Origin: Escherichia phage TrudiRoth
Reading direction: 5' to 3' (one strand)
Sequence record: MZ501109
Length of the DNA: 64,000 nucleotides
Shown here piece by piece: positions 40,815 through 64,000 of this stretch (the first letter of the stretch is position 1; every line of letters starts with the position of its first letter). Under the pieces are notes generated by a model. The model had not been told where the DNA came from. It saw only the letters and a list, made by a program, of their open reading frames with translations, and made no database searches. The position numbers and the translations under genes were made by a program.

Positions 40815-41195
40815 TTGAATTACGCATATCTTATAATACATAACAACGTGGTCTGTGGTACTCGTGCTGTAGAAATGGGAATCACAGAAGAAAAATATAA
40901 GTCACTACCTGAAAAAGAGCAAGAATATTACGTTGAGCAAGCTGCTTGGGAATATGCTGAAGTTTATCCCGAAGAACGTGAAGGTCGTGTTACTATTGTT
41001 GTTGCTCTGGGGCTGGTGGGCTGTGATACCGAAGTTGATACAGATCTAGAAACACTTGAAGAATGGGAAGAGCTGGATATTGCAGAGCAAAATGCTATTA
41101 TCCGTGAATCTTTCTGGGAAGCAGTAGACTGTCACGTTGTCTTTGAGCCAAACGATACAGAAGCTGAAAAACATACTAATTGGATGACTCGATAA
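40815..41195 (+). CDS. hypothetical acidic protein
   Basis: 126 aa, TTG start behind promoter 40755-40783. Confidence 0.4.
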   Translation: MNYAYLIIHNNVVCGTRAVEMGITEEKYKSLPEKEQEYYVEQAAWEYAEVYPEEREGRVTIVVALGLVGCDTEVDTDLETLEEWEELDIAEQNAIIRESFWEAVDCHVVFEPNDTEAEKHTNWMTR

Positions 41196-42058
41196 TGAAA
41201 AAAGAATTTAACCTGCATGAAATGTTAGTAGTACCAGACGATGTTAACCTGTTCTTCGTAGGAGATATTCACGGCTGTAATGATATGCTGGAAGATGCTC
41301 TTAAACTAGCAGGATATAAAGAAAAGCGTGACTATGTTGTCTGTGTTGGCGACTTAATTGACCGTGGCCCGCAGAACTTACAGGTTCTAGCCAAATTCTT
41401 ATATAACCCACGTTTCCGTAGCGTTCGTGGCAACCATGATCAGTTTATGATTGCCGGGGATTATGCCAACTGGATGTATAATGGTGGAATGTGGGCAATG
41501 AATGATCTGGATACCGATACAATTAAAGGTATCGCAGAAGATATGGCAGTTAAAATGCCAGTATTCATGACTGTACTCCATCGTGGCAAGAAATACGGTA
41601 TTGTTCATGGTGGAATACCATTCCAGTATAAAGATGCGGGATTCGATGTACATACACCTAATTGGGACGATATTATTGATCATATCGCTGCAAGTGAAAA
41701 TGATCCTAATGATCATCCTAGTTATTACATTGAGCCATATCTATGGGATCGTGATGTAATTCAGGAAATTGGGTTCATCCTAGCACGTGGAGGAGCTACT
41801 CATGAGTACTTCAATCGTTATGCTAGCTTTAAGAATCAGTTAGTAGTTGAAGTACCTCCAGTTAAAGGTGTGGACTATGTATTCCATGGGCACACAGGTG
41901 TACCATACCCAATCCTGTACCAGAACCGCGTATACCTAGATACTGGCGGTGTGTTCAACGGGAAGTTGACGGTTGCGCAAGTTAATGATGAAGCCGGTAA
42001 GATTATGACATTTACCACAGATAAAAATGATAGCTGTGGTGTACAGAGGATTCTGTAA
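41195..42058 (+). CDS. Ser/Thr protein phosphatase (PPP family)
   Basis: Motifs GDIHG, GDLIDRG and RGNHD; ATG 41195 overlaps the previous stop. Confidence 0.75.
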   Translation: MKKEFNLHEMLVVPDDVNLFFVGDIHGCNDMLEDALKLAGYKEKRDYVVCVGDLIDRGPQNLQVLAKFLYNPRFRSVRGNHDQFMIAGDYANWMYNGGMWAMNDLDTDTIKGIAEDMAVKMPVFMTVLHRGKKYGIVHGGIPFQYKDAGFDVHTPNWDDIIDHIAASENDPNDHPSYYIEPYLWDRDVIQEIGFILARGGATHEYFNRYASFKNQLVVEVPPVKGVDYVFHGHTGVPYPILYQNRVYLDTGGVFNGKLTVAQVNDEAGKIMTFTTDKNDSCGVQRIL

Positions 42059-42570
42059 TGGCCGGTATTTCTCAGGAATACCTGAAGAGTAGACTAACCT
42101 ATAATCCTGAAACATGGGAGTTTCGGTGGAAGCCTAACCCAAATGCTAGTAAAACATGGAATACTAGGTTTGCTGGTAAAGAAGCAGGTACTCTAAATAA
42201 AACTACCGGATATATCAATTTAACAATTGATGGGGTTAAGCATGGTGCACATAGAATGGCTTTCTTATACATGGAGGGCTATTTACCTACTAAAGTGGAT
42301 CACAAAGATACAATAAGAACAAATAATGCTTGGAGTAACCTTAGGGCTGCTGATAATGCTCAGAATACTTGGAATGCTGGTATGAAAAGCTCCAATACTT
42401 CAGGATTTAAAGGTGTTTACTTAGATAAGCGTATAAATAAATATGTAGGTAGAGTTCGCTTTAGAGACAAAAGGTTCTCTACTAAATATTATGAAAATGC
42501 TGAGGATGCAGCTAAAGAGTTGGAAATCCTTAGAGAACAGTTACATAAAGAATTTGCGAGGAATGAATAA
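42058..42570 (+). CDS. HNH homing endonuclease with AP2-like domain
   Basis: AHRMAFLYMEGYLP, DHKDTIRTNNAWSNLR and GFKGVY. Confidence 0.7.
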   Translation: MAGISQEYLKSRLTYNPETWEFRWKPNPNASKTWNTRFAGKEAGTLNKTTGYINLTIDGVKHGAHRMAFLYMEGYLPTKVDHKDTIRTNNAWSNLRAADNAQNTWNAGMKSSNTSGFKGVYLDKRINKYVGRVRFRDKRFSTKYYENAEDAAKELEILREQLHKEFARNE

Positions 42571-53829: not shown

Positions 53830-54825
53830 TTATTCACTTTCGGTGTTAGTGGTAAAGGTAGAAATGTCAATACCTTTTACCATTTCGTCGATCATTTCAG
53901 CAATATTGAAACTCTGTACCATTTCCAACATTGCCGCTTCCATTGCCGCGCCTGCTACCGCTTTCGCTTTCTGATTAGTCGGGGCGTACTGGTCAACTGC
54001 TACGCTTAACAGGTTAGCGATCACTATACGACCAATCGGCGTATCGATATAACCTTTAATCATAAACGGCGCTTTTTTCGCCGCTACTTTCGTGATTTGA
54101 GTTAATGCAATTTTACCCGCTTCCAGTTTTGCAGCATTTACAACAGCGGATTTATTAGCAGCAACGATAGAAGATACTTTAGTCATGATATTTCCTTTAT
54201 TTTCAGTAGTTTGCGCATTTGCGCTTGAAGTTTGAGAGTTTACAGCCTGTTTTGCTACGTTGTCAACTGGTTTTAGTGTAAATCCAGCGTTTGCAACGTT
54301 TGATTCATTCCCATACTCTAAATAATCGTTAGGGATCAACATGTTACCGCTAGCGCGTTCAAAACACAATACGCCAGTTGTTTCGATTGCGTCACTATCC
54401 GCACGTTTAATGGCGCTTGTCAATTCGCCCCAAATGCTAGACAGTAAATCTTCTACATCTCTGGAATTAATACCATTTACGCGAGTAGCGAAAACCATTT
54501 CTTTTTCTTGTACATTGTAACCACGGGCAATATAGCTTTTTTCGTCGTGACCTACAATGATAAAATCAATATCGCTTCCCCGCTGATTTCGTATGATGTG
54601 ATAGTCACGGTTGTAAAGCACTAGAACGCGGCTAGGGTCTAGTAATAGCGTGAAATCATCGACTGAATAATGAGTATCATTATTATCTAAAATATCATCG
54701 TGAATCTTTTCAACCATTGCCACCGTATGTTGTAGGCTTGCTGGACTTGATCCGTCTAGCAGGTTGCGCAAAATACCCTTAATAATAGTGGCGTTTGCTG
54801 GTACTGCAATTCTTACAGTAGACAT
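53830..54825 (-). CDS. hypothetical protein
   Basis: 331 aa, first and largest gene of the - strand block; Ala/Val/Asn-rich central region. Confidence 0.55.
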   Translation of the reverse strand: MSTVRIAVPANATIIKGILRNLLDGSSPASLQHTVAMVEKIHDDILDNNDTHYSVDDFTLLLDPSRVLVLYNRDYHIIRNQRGSDIDFIIVGHDEKSYIARGYNVQEKEMVFATRVNGINSRDVEDLLSSIWGELTSAIKRADSDAIETTGVLCFERASGNMLIPNDYLEYGNESNVANAGFTLKPVDNVAKQAVNSQTSSANAQTTENKGNIMTKVSSIVAANKSAVVNAAKLEAGKIALTQITKVAAKKAPFMIKGYIDTPIGRIVIANLLSVAVDQYAPTNQKAKAVAGAAMEAAMLEMVQSFNIAEMIDEMVKGIDISTFTTNTESE

Positions 54826-55074
54826 TTCTTTGTCTCCCTCGTTAATCGGTGAGTGAATGATATAGATAATTGTTCGCTATGGGCAAGAAAAAAGAAAAGG
54901 TTTTTTATTCCTTGCCTAACGCTTGTTTTTATGATACCCGCGTGTTTTCTATTTCTAGCTCTCTGTAAGCGTACACAAGGCTTTATTATAATAAGGGTAG
55001 CAGTGAGAAAACGCCGTGTAGCGTGTTCTAGACCTCTTAAATTTGATTGCGGTTGTTACTGCTACCATTCTACC

Positions 55075-55092
55075 CTGTATATTTATACAGTA
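55075..55092. repeat. 18-bp near-palindrome CTGTATATTTATACAGTA, copy 2
   Basis: Identical to 51361-51378. Confidence 0.8.
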
Positions 55093-55112
55093 GGATAACC
55101 TGTATATAAGTC

Positions 55113-55170
55113 TGTGGATAAGTCGCCAAATCGTCGCCTATTACGTCAAGTTATTTTGTGCTGTGGATAA
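55113..55170 (-). promoter_or_regulatory. two consensus DnaA boxes in inverted orientation
   Basis: TGTGGATAA at 55113-55121 and 55162-55170; an 8/9 box AGTGGATAA at 55447-55455. Confidence 0.6.
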
Positions 55171-55831
55171 CTTTGGGGATAAGTTAAATGATAGTGGTTC
55201 TCACTTAGCCCGATAGTTTCTCATAGTTATTATTTCTCTTTAATTTATAAGTATATTATATAATATGAAATAGTTAGTTGGCTAATAGGTTTTTAGAGTA
55301 TTAATAGTCTGCTAATAATAACGCATGTTACAATCCACCAGCGTGATTATCATCCTAGCGACTATTAGCGTGCTAATGACCTGATACACGTCCAGACTTA
55401 TTTGTCAATGAAAAATAATAGCAGAAAATACTTTTTTGAAAAATCAAGTGGATAACTCATTAAATTTCATTTTTGCTTTTTGTATAAGTTATTAACAGGG
55501 TCTAAAACGCTCTGTAACGCATTCTAAGCGCCTCAAAGGAAAAGATAGGCAATCATAAGGAGTACACCGAGAAAACCTCACCACTAGCGAAATAAGTTTT
55601 GTCAAGTACCCCAAAGCAGATATAAATGAAAAAATTACTTGCTAAAATGGTTGTTTTGATGTTATTCGCGCGCCCGTTTCATTTAATTTTAGGCAGTCGC
55701 TGGACGTGGTGCGGTGGCGTTTGTCCTTACGTTTCTTTACAAAAATAAGGTTGCGCCCTTCTCGGTATTCTCCTATTATTTATCACGTAGGGCGGCAATG
55801 ACGAACTACACGGCGGAGAAGTTTACCACCG

Positions 55832-55870
55832 CGCTCTTTAAAAACTAGGGAACATCTTAAAGCCTATCGG
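55832..55870. repeat. left arm of a ~40-bp inverted repeat
   Basis: CGCTCTTTAAAAACTAGGGAACATCTTAAAGCCTATCGG; its reverse complement occurs at 56277-56315 with one mismatch. Confidence 0.85.
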
Positions 55871-55903
55871 CGGTAAACTTATATAATATAAGGAATCGAC
55901 GAT

Positions 55904-56062
55904 ATGACAACAATATTTAACGATCATCCAGCTACCCACGACACGATCGAAAAAATCGAACAATGGGTAAAGACTGCAAATGAATACTATGCTAATCATT
56001 CGGAAGCGGTAATAATCTGCAATGATGGGAATGGTTTATATGCTTTGGAGGATCTCAAATGA
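55904..56062 (+). CDS. small hypothetical protein
   Basis: 52-aa ORF translated by hand; RBS AAGGAA; stop overlaps the next start (ATGA). Confidence 0.35.
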   Translation: MTTIFNDHPATHDTIEKIEQWVKTANEYYANHSEAVIICNDGNGLYALEDLK

Positions 56063-56268
56063 AACAAACGCTTTTGATCACTGGCAAGCCTATCAAGTCA
56101 CTTGATAGCAGAACAAAAAATTTGTTGATAGTAGCGCAAAAATCGGTAAAATACCGATTCAAGCAGTACAAGAAAGGAAGGCAGCAAGGTCTGGAAATGG
56201 TGTGGCGTAATATAATGATTGATTTATATAACTCCCATCAAATCGAAAAAAGTTTAAAAAACGCTTGA
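56059..56268 (+). CDS. small basic protein
   Basis: 69-aa ORF coupled to the previous one; the pair is flanked by a ~40-bp inverted repeat. Confidence 0.4.
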   Translation: MKQTLLITGKPIKSLDSRTKNLLIVAQKSVKYRFKQYKKGRQQGLEMVWRNIMIDLYNSHQIEKSLKNA

Positions 56269-56276
56269 TACGCTAG

Positions 56277-56315
56277 CCGATAGGTTTTAAGATGTTCCCT
56301 AGTTTTTAAAGAGCG
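56277..56315. repeat. right arm of a ~40-bp inverted repeat
   Basis: CCGATAGGTTTTAAGATGTTCCCTAGTTTTTAAAGAGCG. Confidence 0.85.
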
Positions 56316-56499
56316 ATAACTTGATAAAATTTGACGGTCGGCACTTACCATAATGTGCCCCGCCCCCTAACTGGGATATAGCGGCCCGCGTGGAGTTCTT
56401 TAAATTTATTATACTGGCGAGCGGATTATAATCTAATAGCGTTTCAACGTATCGAGGCGCTATTGTGGAATAATCCCCCAATAAACCGGAGTATTAAAA

Positions 56500-56751
56500 A
56501 TGCAAAACGTTATTACCGCGCCGAAAGTAGGTCAATCTGTTTTCATTCCTTTTGTAACTAAAACGGATGAATTAACCGGAAAAGCCGAACGTATTAAAGG
56601 TGTGGCGCTTGATCCTTTCGATAAAATCGAAGCGGTATACGCGGAAACGGAACGGAGTAACAACGGCAAGCCAATTTATAACGTTCGCGTTAAATCCGGC
56701 GACGTTGTAAAGATCATTCAGAAAGATGATAAATGGCAAGCTATTAGCTAA
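56500..56751 (+). CDS. hypothetical protein
   Basis: 83-aa ORF with RBS; hairpin follows. Confidence 0.45.
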   Translation: MQNVITAPKVGQSVFIPFVTKTDELTGKAERIKGVALDPFDKIEAVYAETERSNNGKPIYNVRVKSGDVVKIIQKDDKWQAIS

Positions 56752-56850
56752 TTAGTGCTAACTTTATATTCCCCTGAAATATGGGGAATATATGGATTAA
56801 CATTAGTTAATCATAATCCCTTAATTAATAATTGAATGGAGTATTAAATT

Positions 56851-57267
56851 ATGTCTAACGTTAAAACCGAAAAAGCCGCAAAATTCGCATGGAATGAAGA
56901 AAACACTGAAAAAGCCGTTTCTATGTATTCTGAAATGGTCGCTAAAAGCGGAATTGAATTTGCTAACACTGACGGCTTAAAAGAAATCGCCGCCGCCGTT
57001 GGCGCGGCTTCTCCCGTGTCTGTTCGCTCAAAATTGACCAGCGCAAAAGCCTACCAGAAAAGCGATAAACCTCGCAAAGTTGGCGGTGGTAGCTCAATCC
57101 GTAAAGCTCACTATGTGCGCGTCATTGCTAAACATGCCATTGATAGCGGCATTGTAAAAGACGCCGACGATCTGGCAAGTCTGGAAAGCGCAAAATTGGA
57201 AACGCTGGACGCCGTAGCGCAATTGTTAGGCGTAGCGGAGGAAGTAAAACAGGCCGCAGGCGAATAA
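56851..57267 (+). CDS. pre-early protein, possible A2-like
   Basis: 138 aa immediately upstream of the A1-like gene; assignment is positional only. Confidence 0.4.
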   Translation: MSNVKTEKAAKFAWNEENTEKAVSMYSEMVAKSGIEFANTDGLKEIAAAVGAASPVSVRSKLTSAKAYQKSDKPRKVGGGSSIRKAHYVRVIAKHAIDSGIVKDADDLASLESAKLETLDAVAQLLGVAEEVKQAAGE

Positions 57268-57276
57268 ATTTAATCA

Positions 57277-57294
57277 GTGGGGAATAATCCCCAC
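57277..57294 (+). terminator. GUGGGGA-AUAA-UCCCCAC hairpin, member of a recurring motif
   Basis: 7-bp perfect stem 10 nt after the stop of ORF 56851..57267; related hairpin at 56768-56786. Confidence 0.45.
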
Positions 57295-57316
57295 TATCCC
57301 TTAAAGGAGAATAATT

Positions 57317-57541
57317 TTGATCTTTTATCCTAGCGAAGCGTTTATTTTGGGCTTATTTATAGTTGCCGCCGCTTTTATTCTGAATTATACGCGGTCAATT
57401 CTGGCAATAATCGGAATTAATAACGTTTACGCCGCAAATAATTTCCGCAAAAACGCGAATATTCAAAAATATATGTCAATCATCTTTCTTACAATTGGCA
57501 TTGTATTTGGCTTTTGTTCTAGTTTAACGCCGATTAATTAA
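57317..57541 (+). CDS. small membrane protein
   Basis: 74 aa with two hydrophobic segments. Confidence 0.35.
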   Translation: MIFYPSEAFILGLFIVAAAFILNYTRSILAIIGINNVYAANNFRKNANIQKYMSIIFLTIGIVFGFCSSLTPIN

Positions 57542-57653
57542 ATGTTGCAAATTATAACGCCTTTAAAAGTCCTCACTTCAGGCAAGGCGTTATATTTGGC
57601 AATATTGCCAGCTTTAAAATGTTTTAAATCCCTTTAATGGAGTTACTTAACTT

Positions 57654-59318
57654 ATGAATATTTCCGCAGAAAAACAGTCTCAGATCAATAAACTTGCCGC
57701 CGACTTTAATTTCTACGGTAAGCGTTTACGCGCTACCAAACTTGAAGTTTGCGACGATATTTCAAAAGCTGTATATGATACGCCGAAACATTCAACGGCA
57801 ATTTGTGACTGGTTGGAAGCAAATAAGCCAGCGAAACCGAAGGCAGCGAAAGCTGTAAAAGCCATTAAAAACGATGATCGCCCCGAAGCGGCGGGGATCG
57901 TTTCTAGCACGGTTGAGCAATGGGAAGTTAAATCCGGTCGCCGTTTTATTCTAACGTCGATTCAAAATAATACTTTCCCGCACAAAAACTTTTTGAAAGC
58001 GCTTGAGCAATACGCTAGTTATTATGGCGCTGAATTGCTTGTTAGCAAATTCATTTACAACAAAAACGGATTTCAGAATGGGGAAGGCGGCGAAAAAATC
58101 AAATATGATCCCGCATTTGATAAATATATTTGTGAGAAAAACGTATTTTTAAATAATCGCCGCTTTGCTTTCATGGCTGAAATTAACGTATTACCAACGG
58201 CAGATTATCCGCTTTCAGGATTCGCAGAAACTGCCACCGCTTTAAATATTGAAGGTCTGGCAATTGGTCACGCAAAAATTACCGCTGAAAGTGTGCCAGC
58301 GTTAAAAGGTGAAGTAGTGCGCCGTATGTACTCCACCGGAACGGCTACGCTTAAAAACTACATTCAGCAGAAAGCAGGTCAAAAAGCTGAGGCGCTGCAT
58401 AATTACGGCGCTTTGCTGGTAGAATTTGACGACGACGGCGAATTTTTTGTTCGCCAGCTTGAGACAATGGATGAAAGCGGGATGTTTTATGATTTGAATA
58501 TTTGCGCTATACCAACCGGATGTTTCAAAACATCTGATCATGTTTTAGGTTTGCAATATGGCGATATTCACGCCGAAAAATTAGATGATGATTGCGCTGT
58601 TGCATCATGGGTGGGCGAAAATAGCTTGCTTGATATTCTTAAACCAAAATATCAGTTTATCCATGATGTGCATGATTTTACATCGCGTAACCATCATAAT
58701 CGCGCCTCTGGTGTATTCCTAGCTAAACAGTACGCCGCCGGACGTGATAAAGTTATTGATGATCTTATCGATACTGGACGTGTATTAGAATCAATGGAGC
58801 GCGATTTTTCTCAAACAATCATCGTGGAATCCAATCATGATTTGGCGTTATCCCGTTGGCTTGACGATCGCAACGCTAATATTAAAGACGATCCCGCAAA
58901 CGCCGAACTGTATCACAGCCTAAACGCCGCTATTTATGCAGCTATTGCAAAACAAGATGATACCTTTAACGTATTGGATTACGCGCTTAGAAACGTTGCA
59001 GGTTGCGAATTTAACGCTATTTTTCTGACTACTGACCAATCTTTCAAGATTGCAGGAATTGAATGCGGCGTACACGGTCACAATGGCATTAACGGCAGTC
59101 GGGGCAATCCTAAGCAGTTTAAGAAACTTGGACGCCTCAACACTGGCCATACTCACACGGCGAGCATTTACGGTGGCGTGTATACCGCTGGCGTTGCTGG
59201 TAGTCTCGATATGGGTTACAACGTGGGCGCGTCAAGCTGGACGCAAACGCATTTAATTACCTATGCAAACGGGCAACGTACTTTGATTGATTTCAAAAAC
59301 GGTAAATTCTTTGCATAG
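57654..59318 (+). CDS. A1: A1-like pre-early protein (metallophosphoesterase fold)
   Basis: 554 aa with GDIH, SNHD and GHTH phosphoesterase motifs; size and position next to dmp match T5 A1 as I recall it. Confidence 0.7.
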   Translation: MNISAEKQSQINKLAADFNFYGKRLRATKLEVCDDISKAVYDTPKHSTAICDWLEANKPAKPKAAKAVKAIKNDDRPEAAGIVSSTVEQWEVKSGRRFILTSIQNNTFPHKNFLKALEQYASYYGAELLVSKFIYNKNGFQNGEGGEKIKYDPAFDKYICEKNVFLNNRRFAFMAEINVLPTADYPLSGFAETATALNIEGLAIGHAKITAESVPALKGEVVRRMYSTGTATLKNYIQQKAGQKAEALHNYGALLVEFDDDGEFFVRQLETMDESGMFYDLNICAIPTGCFKTSDHVLGLQYGDIHAEKLDDDCAVASWVGENSLLDILKPKYQFIHDVHDFTSRNHHNRASGVFLAKQYAAGRDKVIDDLIDTGRVLESMERDFSQTIIVESNHDLALSRWLDDRNANIKDDPANAELYHSLNAAIYAAIAKQDDTFNVLDYALRNVAGCEFNAIFLTTDQSFKIAGIECGVHGHNGINGSRGNPKQFKKLGRLNTGHTHTASIYGGVYTAGVAGSLDMGYNVGASSWTQTHLITYANGQRTLIDFKNGKFFA

Positions 59319-59370
59319 TTAAATTTAATCGGCGGTTGAAATATACCGCCATTAATAAAAGGTTTATTAA

Positions 59371-59628
59371 ATGAATATTGTATTACCTAAAACGCTGGAT
59401 AAAAAGCAGTATATAACGCCGGATGATATGGAGTGCGGCAAGGTATACCAATTCGATTATATGTTGGCTAGTCCGACAAATACAGGTTGTATTATTGCAG
59501 TTGATACCCGCGATAATGACGTATTAACGTTTAATGATTATTCTGACTTTATGGAATGGTTAGATGATCAAAGTATCACTAATAATGGCGAATTAACGCC
59601 CTATCAATTAACGCTCACAATTAAATAG
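59371..59628 (+). CDS. hypothetical protein
   Basis: 85-aa ORF. Confidence 0.4.
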   Translation: MNIVLPKTLDKKQYITPDDMECGKVYQFDYMLASPTNTGCIIAVDTRDNDVLTFNDYSDFMEWLDDQSITNNGELTPYQLTLTIK

Positions 59629-59666
59629 TTTAATCCCGTAAATATAAATAATCAGGAGTTATAAAC

Positions 59667-60059
59667 ATGAAACAACAAAATATTCCTTTTGACGCTGCAA
59701 AATCTTCCATCGTTCTAGTTTATTCTAATGGTGAACGTTATCACGTCGAGGCGGGGCAAGTTAATTTTGATTTGCTGAATTATAACGACGCTTTGCAGGT
59801 TACTACCTTTGCTTATGATACCGGCAAAGTGGCAAGCCATACGAAAGCAAAAGGCGTTTACGCTGATACTTTGACAGTGCAAACAATTATTATTGATGCG
59901 CTTAAATCCGGTCTAGCGTTTGCAGTTGTTAAGCCGTGTCCGGTCTGCAATCCAGAAGCTAGCGCGATGGTTTACATTTGCGCGGGAATCCGTTCTAGTG
60001 TATCCGGTGAAGATCTTAGCTTTATTGGTGACGCGCTAGCGTACGGCCTCACTAATTAA
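59667..60059 (+). CDS. hypothetical protein
   Basis: 130-aa ORF. Confidence 0.45.
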   Translation: MKQQNIPFDAAKSSIVLVYSNGERYHVEAGQVNFDLLNYNDALQVTTFAYDTGKVASHTKAKGVYADTLTVQTIIIDALKSGLAFAVVKPCPVCNPEASAMVYICAGIRSSVSGEDLSFIGDALAYGLTN

Positions 60060-60147
60060 TAGTTAATTGAACATTGCCAGCTAATCTAATATAATTAGCT
60101 GGCAAGATTGAATTAACCCTAAACCCCTTAAATGGAGAATGTAGCAA

Positions 60148-60882
60148 ATGAATCAAGTTAATATGAATATTACCCGCGCTTTCCCGCATATTTCCCGCGT
60201 TATGATTTGGGATTTAGACGGGACAATCATTAATTCAATGCACCGTGTAGCGCCTTGTTTTGATGATAACGGAAATTTAAATTTAAATAAGTATTCCCGC
60301 GAAGCCTGCAAACATGATTTAATTATGCAGGATTCTTTATTGCCGTTGGTTGAATATATGCGCCAATGTATGAATGATGCAAATACTTTAAATATTATTT
60401 GTACCGCGCGCCTTATGTCTAAAAGCGATTACTTTTATTTGCGTAAACAAGGCTTGCGAGGGCGCGGAAATAGCAATATCCGCGTATTCTCCCGCGATAC
60501 ATTACACAAATACTTTGAAGCGGATAAGGTTAGCGAAATATACCACAGCAAAGACGCTGTATACAAAAGCTATTACTTTGAACTATTTAAACAGCTATAT
60601 CCGAACGCTGATTTTACGATGATTGATGATCATAAAGGCGTATTATCGGCGGCGGCAAGTGCTGGATTTAAAACGTTGGATGCTCAAGCCGTTAACGATA
60701 TCCTATCAATCGGCGTAACATTGATCGGTGAAACCTTTATTGATGAATCGCTTGATGATGATAACGATTATCAATTCCTAGCCGAACGTTTAAAAATGTG
60801 TTGGGAAGGTATGACCGAGGAAGAACGCGCGGAATATAGTACCACTCCGCAACAATTCATTGATAAATTAAAAGTTGCCTAA
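60148..60882 (+). CDS. dmp: 5'-deoxynucleotidase (HAD family)
   Basis: HAD motif I WDLDGTI; 244 aa; terminator follows. Confidence 0.7.
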   Translation: MNQVNMNITRAFPHISRVMIWDLDGTIINSMHRVAPCFDDNGNLNLNKYSREACKHDLIMQDSLLPLVEYMRQCMNDANTLNIICTARLMSKSDYFYLRKQGLRGRGNSNIRVFSRDTLHKYFEADKVSEIYHSKDAVYKSYYFELFKQLYPNADFTMIDDHKGVLSAAASAGFKTLDAQAVNDILSIGVTLIGETFIDESLDDDNDYQFLAERLKMCWEGMTEEERAEYSTTPQQFIDKLKVA

Positions 60883-60897
60883 CAATTAAAAATAAAA

Positions 60898-60935
60898 TAG
60901 TCACACTGTGTAATGATAACATGGTGTGACTATTA
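60898..60935 (+). terminator. terminator-like hairpin after dmp
   Basis: 9-bp stem UAGUCACAC/GUGUGACUA followed by UUAGCUU. Confidence 0.55.
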
Positions 60936-61045
60936 GCTTGCTAAGTACCGGGGCGGTAATGAGACTCATTCTCATCTAGGGAACCTCTGGGCACACCTTC
61001 ATGTGTAATCTTATGAGATTTCGAGAATTGGTAATTAGCGCTAAC

Positions 61046-61291
61046 TTAGGAGGAACACCGGTCTACCGGCTTGTATCCTGATTCTGACATACGAAATCTC
61101 CTCCGCGATGCCCGAGATCCATCCGACCACTCTCGCTCAAACTCCTCCCGTTTCTCCGCAAACTTCCGCTCCCTTTCCGAAAGCTCCCGCGATACTCCCG
61201 CAATATATTCACGATGCTTATTAATCGCCCCGAGTGTTCCGAAGATTCCCGCAAGCACCCCGATAATGAAGATAGCCACAAAACTAAACAT
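61046..61291 (-). CDS. small membrane protein
   Basis: 81 aa with N-terminal TM segment then Arg/Glu-rich tail. Confidence 0.3.
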   Translation of the reverse strand: MFSFVAIFIIGVLAGIFGTLGAINKHREYIAGVSRELSERERKFAEKREEFEREWSDGSRASRRRFRMSESGYKPVDRCSS

Positions 61292-61394
61292 TACTTGTCT
61301 CCCCGCAGCTTACGTTCGATACGAGCTAAGTGGTTATCTAAGATGCACTGTCCGATAATTACCACAACTAGTAAAGCAATAATTACTACTTCCA

Positions 61395-61580
61395 TTATAA
61401 CCACCCCGCCATAGCTGCTAACCAAAAGAGTACAAAGATAAAGAATAACACAGTCCCGAATCCGAAACTATTTATCCAACTTTCGTACACTTCCCCGCGT
61501 CTGTTCTTTCTTCTGTTGTCGTCTGACATCTCTTTGCTTCTCCTGTAGTCTTGGTATTTGGAATACCCTAGCAATTGCAC
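61395..61580 (-). CDS. small membrane protein
   Basis: 61 aa with C-terminal TM segment. Confidence 0.3.
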   Translation of the reverse strand: MQLLGYSKYQDYRRSKEMSDDNRRKNRRGEVYESWINSFGFGTVLFFIFVLFWLAAMAGWL

Positions 61581-61858
61581 GAACCATTATGACTGTCCCG
61601 ATAAGATCCATTACTTCATCAAAGCCGGATTCTTCTAGTAAGAAGGATGTTCCCATCACGTCTTCTATTGTATCTTCTATGACGTCTTGAATGATTTCAT
61701 CAATTGCATCATGTATTGCTTTTTATTCCTGGGATTTATTTCAAAGTTAACAGGTTCCTGAAAGGACTTTTCTTCATCTTGCATTGTGTTTGCTACCTGT
61801 ACCTCATCCCAGAAATAAAAATTTTTGTTTACTTCGAGATCTTTTTACTTTATACTAA

Positions 61859-62125
61859 TTACAAGTGACCAGATTGTTCTAGTTTAAATTTGCAATCACC
61901 ATATTTGAGATCAAACTGTGACAAATCCCACCACCCAAACTTAGTGCGTAACTGAGTTTTAGGGAATCGGTAGCCCACAGTACGTGCTTCTCGAATATCT
62001 AAAGCGTAGTGTTCTTCACCAACATGACCATAAGACTTCACATATGCCTTACAAAATGGCTCGGGAGCTGGCACACAACCCGTCAACACTACTGCTGCAA
62101 CTACGATGGCTAGTAACTTTTTCAT
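61859..62125 (-). CDS. llp: Llp-like lipoprotein (receptor-blocking, superinfection exclusion)
   Basis: Signal peptide with lipobox LTGC; divergent from and adjacent to the receptor-binding-protein gene. Confidence 0.6.
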   Translation of the reverse strand: MKKLLAIVVAAVVLTGCVPAPEPFCKAYVKSYGHVGEEHYALDIREARTVGYRFPKTQLRTKFGWWDLSQFDLKYGDCKFKLEQSGHL

Positions 62126-62208
62126 AATCGTTCCTCTGTTTAATTTATAAATATATTATAGCAAAATAGAGGGATCTAAGCAAATACATTTTTAAAGAAG
62201 GAGATTGT

Positions 62209-63990
62209 ATGAGTTTTTTCGCAGGAAAATTTAGTGATGGTAAAACTGTATTATCTCTAAACGCTGCTAATGGTGGTGATATAAATCAGCACTACTCTCC
62301 AAATACTAATAGTATCTTCCACTCAGATATGCCATTTGTCCTAGTTGATGGGACTTATGAAGCAGCCCTAGGTAACGCAGGTAATGGATACTTTGTTACT
62401 CAGATGCCTTGGGATATTATAAATATTAAATCCAATGATCCGGGTAGAGTTATATTAACTGCTATTGAGATAAACGGTACTCATCGTGGATTTCTGAATG
62501 GTACTCAATCTCAGGTTGGCCAGTTCTTATCATTCTTTGAAGACCCACCACGTGCTGGTGCTGAATTATCTGTAACATCTGCTTTTGCGATCGGTGATAG
62601 TTTAGCTCATGGTACTTATATCTATAATGGTGGTCTTGGTCATGAGGAATCTATTGCTAGGCAAGGTTCTGGAGGCAGTTTACTACAGTCCTCTGGTTTC
62701 CAGATCTTTAGACCTGGTGGTGTTTCTGCTGGTGAAGCCATTGCCAGAGCCTGGAGTCTTATGGGTTTTCCAACTGGTGTCTCTACTGTTCCTTTAGATG
62801 GTGGTAACGCAGATTATTGGGAACCTAACTGGCAGGCGCCTATTGGTTCTGCTGGTAGAGGCCATGATTGGTTTTATGTTTGTAGTTCTAATATTCGTGG
62901 CTTCGCAGGTAAAAAAGGCGTACTACCAGATAACGTAAACGTTCTTTACCAATCTCCTGCATACCCAGAAAAAATATATGTTTGTAGAGGTTCTACTTCT
63001 AATATGGCTGCTCAGTCTGCTAGAAAGGTATATGTACAGGACTGGTATAACGTTACGCCAACTAAGGTTATTTGGTATGTGCTAAATCTGCGCTATTCTA
63101 ATGGTAGTATGGGAGTTTCTGGTAATCCATTTACCGGTTCAGATATCCTAATATCTCCGTCTAATTTTACTATTAAAGGTGTTAGCCTACCAAATACAGG
63201 CTATAAATTTATTAACCAGAATGCTTTCGGAAACTTAGGCTATCGCCCTGATATGGAGTATGTTGGTAATAACGCTGCGTATACCGGAGTTTTTGGTGAT
63301 AATACTGCACGATGTGAATTTATCGGCTCTAGTAATGGCGGGTTGTGGTCTCCTGTTAACTATGGGGGTGCAGCTTCTCAAATTAGCTTATATAAATTTG
63401 GTATAGGTAAACAATGGTATGTAGATACTAATACCAACTCCATTGGTAATGAACATGGACCTGTGTGGAGTCCTAGTACTGTACCCCTCAGGTTATTCCC
63501 AGGCAACGTTGCAAGTACTTATGTAGGGGACGATATAACTCCATCCTACCCTGGTGCTGGTGACTTCTACACACCTTTGGCCACAGTTTGGTTGGGATTA
63601 CCAAATGCTCACTCTACTGTTATATTAACTACTGAAGTTATTATGGGTAATCTTAATACTGCTGGAATGCCTGTGCGTACTTACGGCGGTAGCGCTTGGC
63701 AGGTACAAGGTAGACGTCAACAAAGTTATACAGCTGGTGATGGTGTATTCCACCAGATTCTTACTCTGCCACCTGGATATCTAGTACCTTATCACAGTAC
63801 AACTTCCTATAGTTATATACAGACTTGGGCTAGTAGGCCTGATGAGTTTGCTTTCCGTAGGAACGGATATATTTATACTATTAAAAACCTTGGTAATGGC
63901 AACGTTGAGTTGGGTGTTATCATTCACGCTGCAGAAGCGGCAGCTGTTTTCTTGCCAAGACTACGTGTAACAGTTCAACGCCTAACCTAA
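62209..63990 (+). CDS. oad: receptor-binding tail protein (pb5-like)
   Basis: 593 aa, Gly/Asn/Ser/Thr-rich, paired with the llp-like lipoprotein as in T5 oad-llp. Confidence 0.6.
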   Translation: MSFFAGKFSDGKTVLSLNAANGGDINQHYSPNTNSIFHSDMPFVLVDGTYEAALGNAGNGYFVTQMPWDIINIKSNDPGRVILTAIEINGTHRGFLNGTQSQVGQFLSFFEDPPRAGAELSVTSAFAIGDSLAHGTYIYNGGLGHEESIARQGSGGSLLQSSGFQIFRPGGVSAGEAIARAWSLMGFPTGVSTVPLDGGNADYWEPNWQAPIGSAGRGHDWFYVCSSNIRGFAGKKGVLPDNVNVLYQSPAYPEKIYVCRGSTSNMAAQSARKVYVQDWYNVTPTKVIWYVLNLRYSNGSMGVSGNPFTGSDILISPSNFTIKGVSLPNTGYKFINQNAFGNLGYRPDMEYVGNNAAYTGVFGDNTARCEFIGSSNGGLWSPVNYGGAASQISLYKFGIGKQWYVDTNTNSIGNEHGPVWSPSTVPLRLFPGNVASTYVGDDITPSYPGAGDFYTPLATVWLGLPNAHSTVILTTEVIMGNLNTAGMPVRTYGGSAWQVQGRRQQSYTAGDGVFHQILTLPPGYLVPYHSTTSYSYIQTWASRPDEFAFRRNGYIYTIKNLGNGNVELGVIIHAAEAAAVFLPRLRVTVQRLT

Positions 63991-64000
63991 AGGAGGATAT

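What the first reader, a model, noticed from the sequence alone, without database searches (positions are those of the whole stretch)
57654..59318. A1-like pre-early protein carries a complete metallophosphoesterase signature
GDIH, SNHD and GHTH motifs occur in the order expected for a calcineurin/Mre11-type nuclease or phosphatase, consistent with a role in host DNA degradation or second-step transfer. The neighbouring 138-aa ORF is a positional A2 candidate only.
Basis: partly seen in the sequence, partly recalled or inferred. Interest (0 to 1): 0.4.

Follow-up and report, generated by a model that had tools for sequence, protein, structure and literature searches.

The report
T5 A1 ortholog with metallophosphoesterase site
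This gene is the ordinary counterpart, in a T5-like Salmonella/E. coli phage, of the well-known T5 pre-early gene A1; its metal-dependent phosphoesterase signature is real and strictly conserved, and recent T5 work has already proposed that A1 is the enzyme that destroys host DNA.

Summary
ORF 57654..59318 (+) encodes 554 aa with GDIH (303-306), SNHD (393-396) and GHTH (498-501) in that order. The protein is 89% identical over its full length to T5 A1. It lies in the pre-early terminal-repeat block with dmp and A2. The 138-aa neighbour is a true A2 ortholog (86% identity), not merely a positional candidate.

A 2026 preprint already calls T5 A1 a "predicted metallo-phosphatase", necessary and sufficient for host DNA degradation. 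The finding is therefore correct but known.

One extra result: residues 86-297 also model as a metallophosphoesterase fold that lacks every metal ligand. A1 therefore appears to be a pseudo-enzyme domain fused to an enzyme domain.

The parts
57654..59318 (+). A1 gene (554 aa plus TAG stop), ortholog of T5 pre-early gene A1
   Evidence: ORF; 89% identity to T5 A1 over full length; PHROG 1745 E=1e-243; 99.5% identical to A1 of Salmonella phage 2-3
57641..57644 (+). GGAG ribosome-binding site 9 nt upstream of the ATG
   Evidence: read directly from the sequence
57654..57824 (+). N-terminal three-helix domain (aa 1-57), specific to Demerecviridae A1; replaced by helix-turn-helix domains in distant homologs
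   Evidence: helices 5-17, 26-41 and 44-56 with pLDDT about 90; no Pfam hit; distant homologs carry PF13384 or PF04218 at the N-terminus
57825..57908 (+). Lys/Ala-rich, poorly ordered linker (aa 58-85, KPAKPKAAKAVKAIK...)
   Evidence: pLDDT below 50 for residues 62-73 and 79-84; variable in alignment A1
57909..58544 (+). Degenerate metallophosphoesterase-fold domain (aa 86-297) without metal ligands. Conserved polar residues Q104 N105 N106 T107, Y135 N136 K137, P181 T182, T228 G229 T232 N235 Y236, H249, R267, D280
58545..59315 (+). Metallophosphoesterase-fold domain carrying the catalytic signature (aa 298-554)
58560..58571 (+). Motif I, G303-D304-I-H306, directly after strand 297-301
   Evidence: D304 and H306 are 161/161 conserved
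58662..58676 (+). Motif II variant, H337-D338-V-H-D341, directly after strand 333-337; followed by the conserved R-N-H347-H348-N loop (nt 58689-58697)
   Evidence: D338 161/161, H348 157/161, D341 139/161
58830..58841 (+). Motif III, S393-N394-H395-D396, after strand 386-391
   Evidence: N394 and H395 161/161
59073..59081 (+). Motif IV, H474-G-H476, after strand 469-470
   Evidence: H474 161/161; H476 is H in 109 and D in 51
59145..59156 (+). Motif V, G498-H499-T-H501, directly after strand 495-497
   Evidence: H501 161/161; H499 is H in 152 and D in 9. The GD.H variant is also the motif V form of T5 D12/SbcD
56851..57267 (+). A2 gene (138 aa), DNA-binding partner of A1 needed for second-step transfer in T5
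   Evidence: 86% identity to T5 A2; PHROG 1725 E=4e-50; annotated A2 in Seafire
57317..57541 (+). 74-aa two-pass membrane protein, homolog of T5.005, between A2 and A1
   Evidence: PHROG 4820 E=4e-32; synteny with T5
60148..60882 (+). dmp, deoxynucleoside-5'-monophosphatase, last gene of the pre-early operon
   Evidence: 91% identity to T5 Dmp

Best explanation
The ORF is the ortholog of bacteriophage T5 pre-early protein A1 in a T5-like phage (genus Epseptimavirus or close to it). It has four parts. The first is a short N-terminal helical domain. The second is a basic flexible linker. The third is a domain with a metallophosphoesterase (MPE) fold that has lost all metal-binding residues. The fourth is a C-terminal MPE-fold domain that keeps the full two-metal site. 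The predicted ligands are D304, H306, D338, N394, H474, H499 and H501, with H395 as the catalytic histidine. The most likely mechanism is as follows. After first-step transfer the protein is made from the terminal-repeat DNA. It binds two divalent cations (probably Mn2+ or Mg2+) and directly hydrolyses phosphodiester bonds of the host chromosome through a metal-activated water, as Mre11/SbcD and the PolD DP1 exonuclease do. The nucleotides released are then dephosphorylated by the co-transcribed Dmp. A1 together with A2 is also needed for the rest of the phage genome to enter. What is shown here: orthology, gene context, invariance of the site, and the predicted fold. What comes from the literature on T5: A1 is necessary and sufficient for DNA degradation in vivo. 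What is inferred: A1 itself is the DNase, the identity of the metals, and the role of the degenerate domain.
Confidence: 0.7

Rival explanations
1. A1 is an active metallophosphoesterase, but DNA is not its substrate. It would act as a phosphatase or phosphodiesterase on a nucleotide, a signalling molecule or a protein such as RNA polymerase. Host DNA degradation would then be indirect, through activation or de-repression of a host nuclease.
Against: The single best match is a proofreading exonuclease, and SbcD and Mre11 score nearly as high. Expression of A1 alone degrades the chromosome in two E. coli strains. Homologs in other phages sit inside DNA replication or nucleotide-metabolism modules. 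No candidate host nuclease has been identified.
Confidence: 0.18
2. A1 is a sequence-specific, restriction-like endonuclease that, alone or with A2, cuts sites present in host DNA but absent from first-step-transfer DNA. RecBCD would then finish the degradation (Davison's hypothesis).
For: It would explain how unmodified T5 DNA escapes degradation (bioRxiv 10.1101/866236). The N-terminal helical domain and the helix-turn-helix domains of distant homologs could give DNA recognition.
Against: From general knowledge, characterised MPE nucleases are structure- or end-specific rather than sequence-specific, and no restriction-enzyme fold or motif was found. The N-terminal domain is not conserved across the family, whereas the two-domain core is. 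This is a special case of the best explanation, not a separate fold assignment.
Confidence: 0.08
3. A1 is a catalytically inert scaffold with a metallophosphoesterase fold, like Vps29 or the eukaryotic polymerase B-subunits. It would work only as a DNA-transfer or transcription factor.
For: Vps29 and Pol delta/alpha/epsilon B-subunits are among the top structural matches. The N-terminal MPE-like domain of A1 is indeed degenerate. The 2012 phiCbK paper favoured a transcription-factor role.
Against: Inert MPE scaffolds have lost their metal ligands. The C-domain of A1 keeps all seven plus the catalytic His in 161/161 diverse sequences, which indicates selection for catalysis.
Confidence: 0.03
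4. The three motifs are a chance coincidence in a His/Asp/Asn-rich protein.
For: No profile method detects the superfamily.
Against: 0 of 200,000 shuffles reproduce the ordered trio. The residues are invariant down to 28% identity. The predicted fold matches.
Confidence: 0.01

Closest known systems
Bacteriophage T5 protein A1 (T5.004, YP_006832; PHROG 1745 'DNA transfer protein')
   Same: 89% identical over the whole length, nearly the same size (554 vs 556 aa), and the same position in the pre-early terminal-repeat operon between the T5.005-like and T5.003-like genes, with A2 upstream and dmp downstream. All motif residues are identical.
   Different: Only conservative sequence drift and a 2-aa deletion at residues 322-323. 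The host range of the closest isolates is Salmonella/E. coli Epseptimavirus-like phages rather than Tequintavirus.
Mre11 / SbcD double-strand-break nucleases (including T5's own D12)
   Different: No detectable sequence-profile similarity (hhalign probability below 1%). Motif II is HDxxD rather than GDxxD/H, and motif III is SNHD rather than GNHD/E. No gene for a Rad50/SbcC-type partner is adjacent. A capping domain was not looked for. A1 instead carries a second, degenerate MPE-like domain upstream.
Archaeal PolD small subunit DP1 (3'-5' proofreading exonuclease) and eukaryotic polymerase B-subunits
   Different: In DP1 and the B-subunits the preceding domain is an OB fold (general knowledge). 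In A1 it models as a second MPE fold. A1 is not associated with a polymerase catalytic subunit. Sequence identity in the structural alignment is only 15%.
Small single-domain metallophosphoesterases and pseudo-enzymes (Vps29, YfcE, MJ0936)
   Different: It is fused in one chain to an intact catalytic MPE domain. It carries its own invariant polar residues (Q104, Y135, P181, H249, R267, D280), which have no counterpart in the canonical motifs.

Membership tests
T5 A1 family (PHROG 1745) | Full-length sequence similarity to T5 A1 | tested here: met
   89% identity over 554/556 aa; PHROG 1745 E=1.1e-243 covering 8-553
T5 A1 family (PHROG 1745) | Location in the pre-early (first-step-transfer) terminal-repeat block, with A2 upstream and dmp downstream on the same strand | tested here: met
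   The region is 94% identical to the annotated terminal repeat of phage Seafire. The gene order matches T5. A2 is 86% and Dmp 91% identical
T5 A1 family (PHROG 1745) | Required for host DNA degradation and second-step transfer | not testable with these tools
   Known for T5 from genetics; inferred here by orthology
Metallophosphoesterase (calcineurin-like) superfamily | Five motifs in order, D-x-H / G-D-x-x-D / G-N-H-[DE] / H / G-H-x-H, supplying seven metal ligands | tested here: met
   GD304IH306, HD338VHD341, SN394H395D, H474GH, GH499TH501. Motifs II and III have H and S in place of the usual G. All ligand positions are invariant in 161 sequences, with H499 as H or D
Metallophosphoesterase (calcineurin-like) superfamily | Alpha/beta/beta/alpha sandwich fold with the motifs at the C-terminal ends of beta-strands | tested here: met
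Metallophosphoesterase (calcineurin-like) superfamily | Motif residues superimpose on the catalytic residues of a solved member | tested here: inconclusive
Metallophosphoesterase (calcineurin-like) superfamily | Recognition by the family's sequence profiles (Pfam PF00149 / PF12850) | tested here: not met
   No hit at E<=10 for the whole protein or the isolated C-domain, whereas the control protein at 41180..42058 scores 1.4e-17. The A1 profile finds 2,479 clusters in a library of 1.84 billion representatives. All 150 listed are A1-like, and the total looks far too small to include the wider superfamily; that last judgement is mine, not a tool result
Metallophosphoesterase (calcineurin-like) superfamily | Binds two metal ions and hydrolyses phosphoester bonds | not testable with these tools
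   Requires biochemistry. The T5 preprint says in vitro activity is still to be tested
Mre11/SbcD nuclease family | Sequence-profile similarity to Mre11/SbcD | tested here: not met
   hhalign of the A1 C-domain alignment against a 121-sequence T5 D12/SbcD family alignment gives probability 0.3%
Mre11/SbcD nuclease family | Adjacent Rad50/SbcC-type ATPase partner | tested here: not met
   The neighbours are small proteins, A2 and dmp. In T5 the SbcCD-like pair D12/D13 is a separate locus
T5 A2 family (PHROG 1725), for the 138-aa neighbour | Sequence similarity to T5 A2 and position upstream of A1 | tested here: met
   86% identity and 95% positives over 138 aa; PHROG 1725 E=4e-50

The most novel reading that the evidence does not exclude
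A1 is an intramolecular pseudo-dimer of two metallophosphoesterase folds. The upstream copy (aa 86-297) has lost every metal ligand. It keeps an invariant polar patch (Q104-N-N-T107, Y135-N-K, P181-T, H249, R267, D280) at the places where the active-site loops would be. The downstream copy is the catalyst. The dead copy would serve as the DNA-, A2- or RNA-polymerase-binding module. That role could explain A1's multiple functions, and perhaps how phage DNA is spared. I found no description of this organisation in the papers I could read, and I know of no characterised MPE nuclease built this way. The two-domain core defines a large family without a Pfam model: at least 1,600 clusters at 50% identity with E<=1e-30. 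It extends well beyond Demerecviridae to phiCbK-like, Flavobacterium, Rhizobium and Shewanella phages, and to a metagenomic contig encoding T4-like baseplate proteins.
Probability: 0.4. Interest if true: 0.5.

Novelty: already known. Interest (0 to 1): 0.3.

Why it matters
Which enzyme lets T5 destroy the host chromosome within minutes has been an open question for decades. The conserved two-metal site gives eight residues to mutate: D304, H306, D338, N394, H395, H474, H499 and H501. That makes the direct-DNase hypothesis immediately testable. However, the group working on T5 has already published the genetic case and the metallo-phosphatase prediction, so this window adds an ortholog rather than a discovery. 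The modest added value has three parts. First, the site is invariant in 161 diverse sequences drawn from a family of about 2,500 clusters. Second, the family is invisible to Pfam and NCBIfam and could be given a model. Third, a second, degenerate metallophosphoesterase-like domain is a possible target for dissecting A1's other functions.

Tried and rejected
1. Pfam and NCBIfam scans of the whole protein and of three separate segments gave no relevant family.
2. phmmer and profile hmmsearch against all PDB sequences gave only chance hits, for example a dehydroquinase at E=0.004 matching SNHD by accident.
3. hhalign of the A1 alignment against the window's canonical phosphatase gave a 16-column local match at probability 1.5%.
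4. I collected 120 homologs of T5 D12/SbcD and ran hhalign against A1 C-domain and N-domain alignments. This was done first with 125 sequences and then with 161 more diverse ones. Probabilities were 0.3% or less, and the motifs were only partly in register.
5. hhalign of the N-domain against the C-domain, to test for an internal duplication, gave no signal. A duplication origin is therefore suggested only by the shared predicted fold.
6. Foldseek against PDB with the whole model gave no hit at E<=0.001, although Mre11, MPPED2, GpdQ and purple acid phosphatase were among the weak top hits.
7. The promoter and terminator scan of 55000-61300 gave counts close to the shuffled expectation and was not used.
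8. The exhaustive representative search with the A1 profile did not bridge to other metallophosphoesterases. All 150 best hits are A1-like two-domain proteins.
9. The retron Eco2 paper and a daunorubicin paper were checked for A1 biochemistry and contained none. Davison's 2015 review is not held in the library.
10. I rejected the chance-coincidence reading and the inert-scaffold reading for the C-domain, for the reasons given under the rival explanations.

Full report
OBSERVATION. The ORF listing gives an ATG-initiated ORF at exactly 57654..59318 on the + strand, 554 aa. A GGAG ribosome-binding site lies 9 nt upstream. The translation contains one GDIH (aa 303-306), one SNHD (393-396) and one GHTH (498-501), in that order. 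HDVHD (337-341) stands in for G-D-x-x-D. HGH (474-476) supplies the lone motif IV histidine.

The ordered trio appeared in 0 of 200,000 shuffles of the protein. A looser five-motif pattern appeared in 16 of 200,000. Among the 99 stop-to-stop segments of at least 100 aa in the window, the strict trio occurs only here. The loose pattern also picks out 41180..42058, a genuine lambda-phosphatase-like enzyme (Pfam PF00149, E=1.4e-17). I used that protein as an internal positive control.

WHAT THE GENE IS. Window 55500-61000 is 94% identical to the terminal repeat of Salmonella phage Seafire (Epseptimavirus, Demerecviridae). There the corresponding genes are annotated A2, A1 and deoxynucleotide 5'-monophosphatase. 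Against T5 itself (NC_005859), the ORF is 89% identical to A1 over the full length. The 138-aa ORF at 56851..57267 is 86% identical to A2. The ORF at 60148..60882 is 91% identical to Dmp. PHROGs assigns the three to families 1745, 1725 and 415. The closest isolate is Salmonella phage 2-3, at 99.5% protein identity. The window as a whole is nearly identical to E. coli phage Shin27. The gene is therefore an ordinary A1 ortholog in the pre-early (first-step-transfer) block of a T5-like phage.

IS THE SIGNATURE FUNCTIONAL? I examined conservation in four alignments:
- 30 homologs at 42-90% identity.
- 16 sequences that include Vibrio, Caulobacter, Flavobacterium and Rhizobium phage proteins at 28-35% identity.
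- 125 sequences.
- 161 sequences built mainly on the cluster representatives at 50% identity.

D304, H306, D338, N394, H395, H474 and H501 are invariant in all 161. H499 is His in 152 and Asp in 9. The resulting GD.H form is also the motif V form of T5's own SbcD-like D12. These are the seven ligand positions plus the catalytic histidine of the canonical two-metal site; that assignment rests on established knowledge of Mre11 and lambda phosphatase. Flanking positions vary more: D341, D396, H476 and H348.

FOLD. AlphaFold2 with the 30-sequence alignment gave mean pLDDT 87.9 and pTM 0.80. In the model, each motif begins at or within three residues of the C-terminal end of a beta-strand: 297-301 then GDIH, 333-337 then D338, 386-391 then SNHD, 469-470 then H474, and 495-497 then GHTH. 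This is the canonical placement.

Foldseek on the whole chain was weak, with its best hit Mre11 at E=6e-3.

WHAT DID NOT WORK. No sequence-profile method connects A1 to the superfamily. This holds for Pfam and NCBIfam, PDB phmmer and hmmsearch, and hhalign against the window's phosphatase or a 121-sequence D12/SbcD alignment. The insignificant hhalign alignments put motifs I and III in register with D12, and motifs I and II in register with the phosphatase, but misplace the rest.

An exhaustive HMMER search of 1.84 billion representatives found 2,479 clusters at E<=0.001 and 1,633 at E<=1e-30. All 150 listed are proteins of about 400-880 aa, mostly 500-620. Nearly all are matched in one stretch across profile positions of about 95 to 553. 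A1 is thus a large, self-contained family that current domain libraries do not cover. The assignment to the MPE superfamily rests on predicted fold plus an invariant motif pattern.

AN UNEXPECTED SECOND DOMAIN. Residues 86-297 are as conserved as the catalytic part, but with Gln, Asn, Thr, Tyr and Lys rather than Asp and His. The conserved residues are Q104, N105, N106, T107, Y135, N136, K137, P181, T182, T228, G229, T232, N235, Y236, H249, R267 and D280.

Those alignments must therefore involve the C-domain. This is an inference, not a direct result. The two domains show no profile similarity to each other.

DISTRIBUTION. tblastn finds A1 homologs in 1,133 phage records. They include Caulobacter phiCbK-like phages (next to a T7-like DNA polymerase), a 60-kb Flavobacterium podophage, Rhizobium RHEph10 (next to PhoH and DnaB) and Shewanella phage 1/4. 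Metagenomic homologs lie on a 153-kb contig with T4-like baseplate genes and on a 101-kb contig with a single-subunit RNA polymerase. All keep residues of about 93-554. The N-terminal 85 residues are specific to Demerecviridae, and several distant members have Pfam helix-turn-helix domains there instead. Homologs outside T5-like phages were already noted in 2012 (PMC3556154).

MECHANISM AND VERDICT. The most likely reading (confidence about 0.7) is that A1 is a two-metal phosphodiesterase that cuts host DNA directly, upstream of Dmp in the nucleotide-disposal pathway. Its helical N-terminus and dead MPE-like domain would provide binding functions. The main rival (about 0.18) is an active MPE with a non-DNA substrate that triggers a host nuclease. 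A restriction-like specificity (about 0.08) is a variant of the main idea. An inert scaffold (about 0.03) and chance (about 0.01) are excluded by the invariance of the ligands.

The only possibly new element is the tandem pseudo-enzyme/enzyme architecture, together with the size of this family, which has no Pfam or NCBIfam model.

Noticed in passing
window 41180..42058 (+): A canonical lambda/NinI-like Ser/Thr phosphatase (292 aa as listed from a TTG start). It has textbook GDIHG, GDLIDRG, GNHD and GHT motifs, Pfam PF00149 at E=1.4e-17 and PHROG 246. It is a second metallophosphoesterase in the same window and served as a positive control. Pfam detects it easily but does not detect A1.
   Followed up: partly
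window 42058..42570 (+): A 170-aa ORF immediately downstream of the phosphatase, with its start overlapping the phosphatase stop. By eye it looks like a homing-endonuclease-type insert of the kind common in T5-like phages. It was not checked with any tool.
   Followed up: no
window ~60990..64000: The window runs from dmp straight into a small membrane protein (61046..61291, -), a Cor/Llp-like lipoprotein (61859..62125, -, signal MKKLLAIVVAAVVLTGC) and the pb5/Oad-type receptor-binding tail protein (62209..63990, +, PHROG 4815). The terminal-repeat boundary of phage Seafire maps to about window 60993. The window therefore spans the junction between the late region and the repeat. It is colinear with records such as phage Shin27, which hold this region once.
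   Followed up: partly
window 57317..57541 (+); locus L001 5005..5229: The 74-aa two-pass membrane protein between A2 and A1 (T5.005 homolog, PHROG 4820) is annotated 'putative A1 protein precursor' in phage Seafire and some other records. This looks like a misnomer carried through annotation.
   Followed up: no
loci L003 (8001..9623), L004 (8001..9743), L005 (3782..5485), L006 (3770..5359), L007 (3536..5398): A1-family proteins (28-46% identity, both MPE-like domains kept) occur well outside Demerecviridae. Examples are a 153-kb contig with T4-type baseplate genes, a 101-kb contig with a single-subunit RNA polymerase, Caulobacter phiCbK-like phages, a Flavobacterium podophage and Rhizobium RHEph10. 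They usually sit among replication or nucleotide-metabolism genes. Many replace the T5-type N-terminus with a Pfam helix-turn-helix domain. The family has about 2,500 clusters at 50% identity and no Pfam or NCBIfam model.
   Followed up: partly
window 53830..54825 (-): A 331-aa homolog of T5.011 (PHROG 4263), transcribed divergently from the A2-A1-dmp operon. The T5 preprint reports gene 011 as toxic in E. coli, with no predicted function.
   Followed up: no
window 56500..56751 (+): An 83-aa ORF upstream of A2 that matches Pfam DUF7177 end to end (E=1.4e-43). It is the T5.007 homolog, one of the few pre-early genes reported as conserved in all T5-like phages, and its function is unknown.
   Followed up: no
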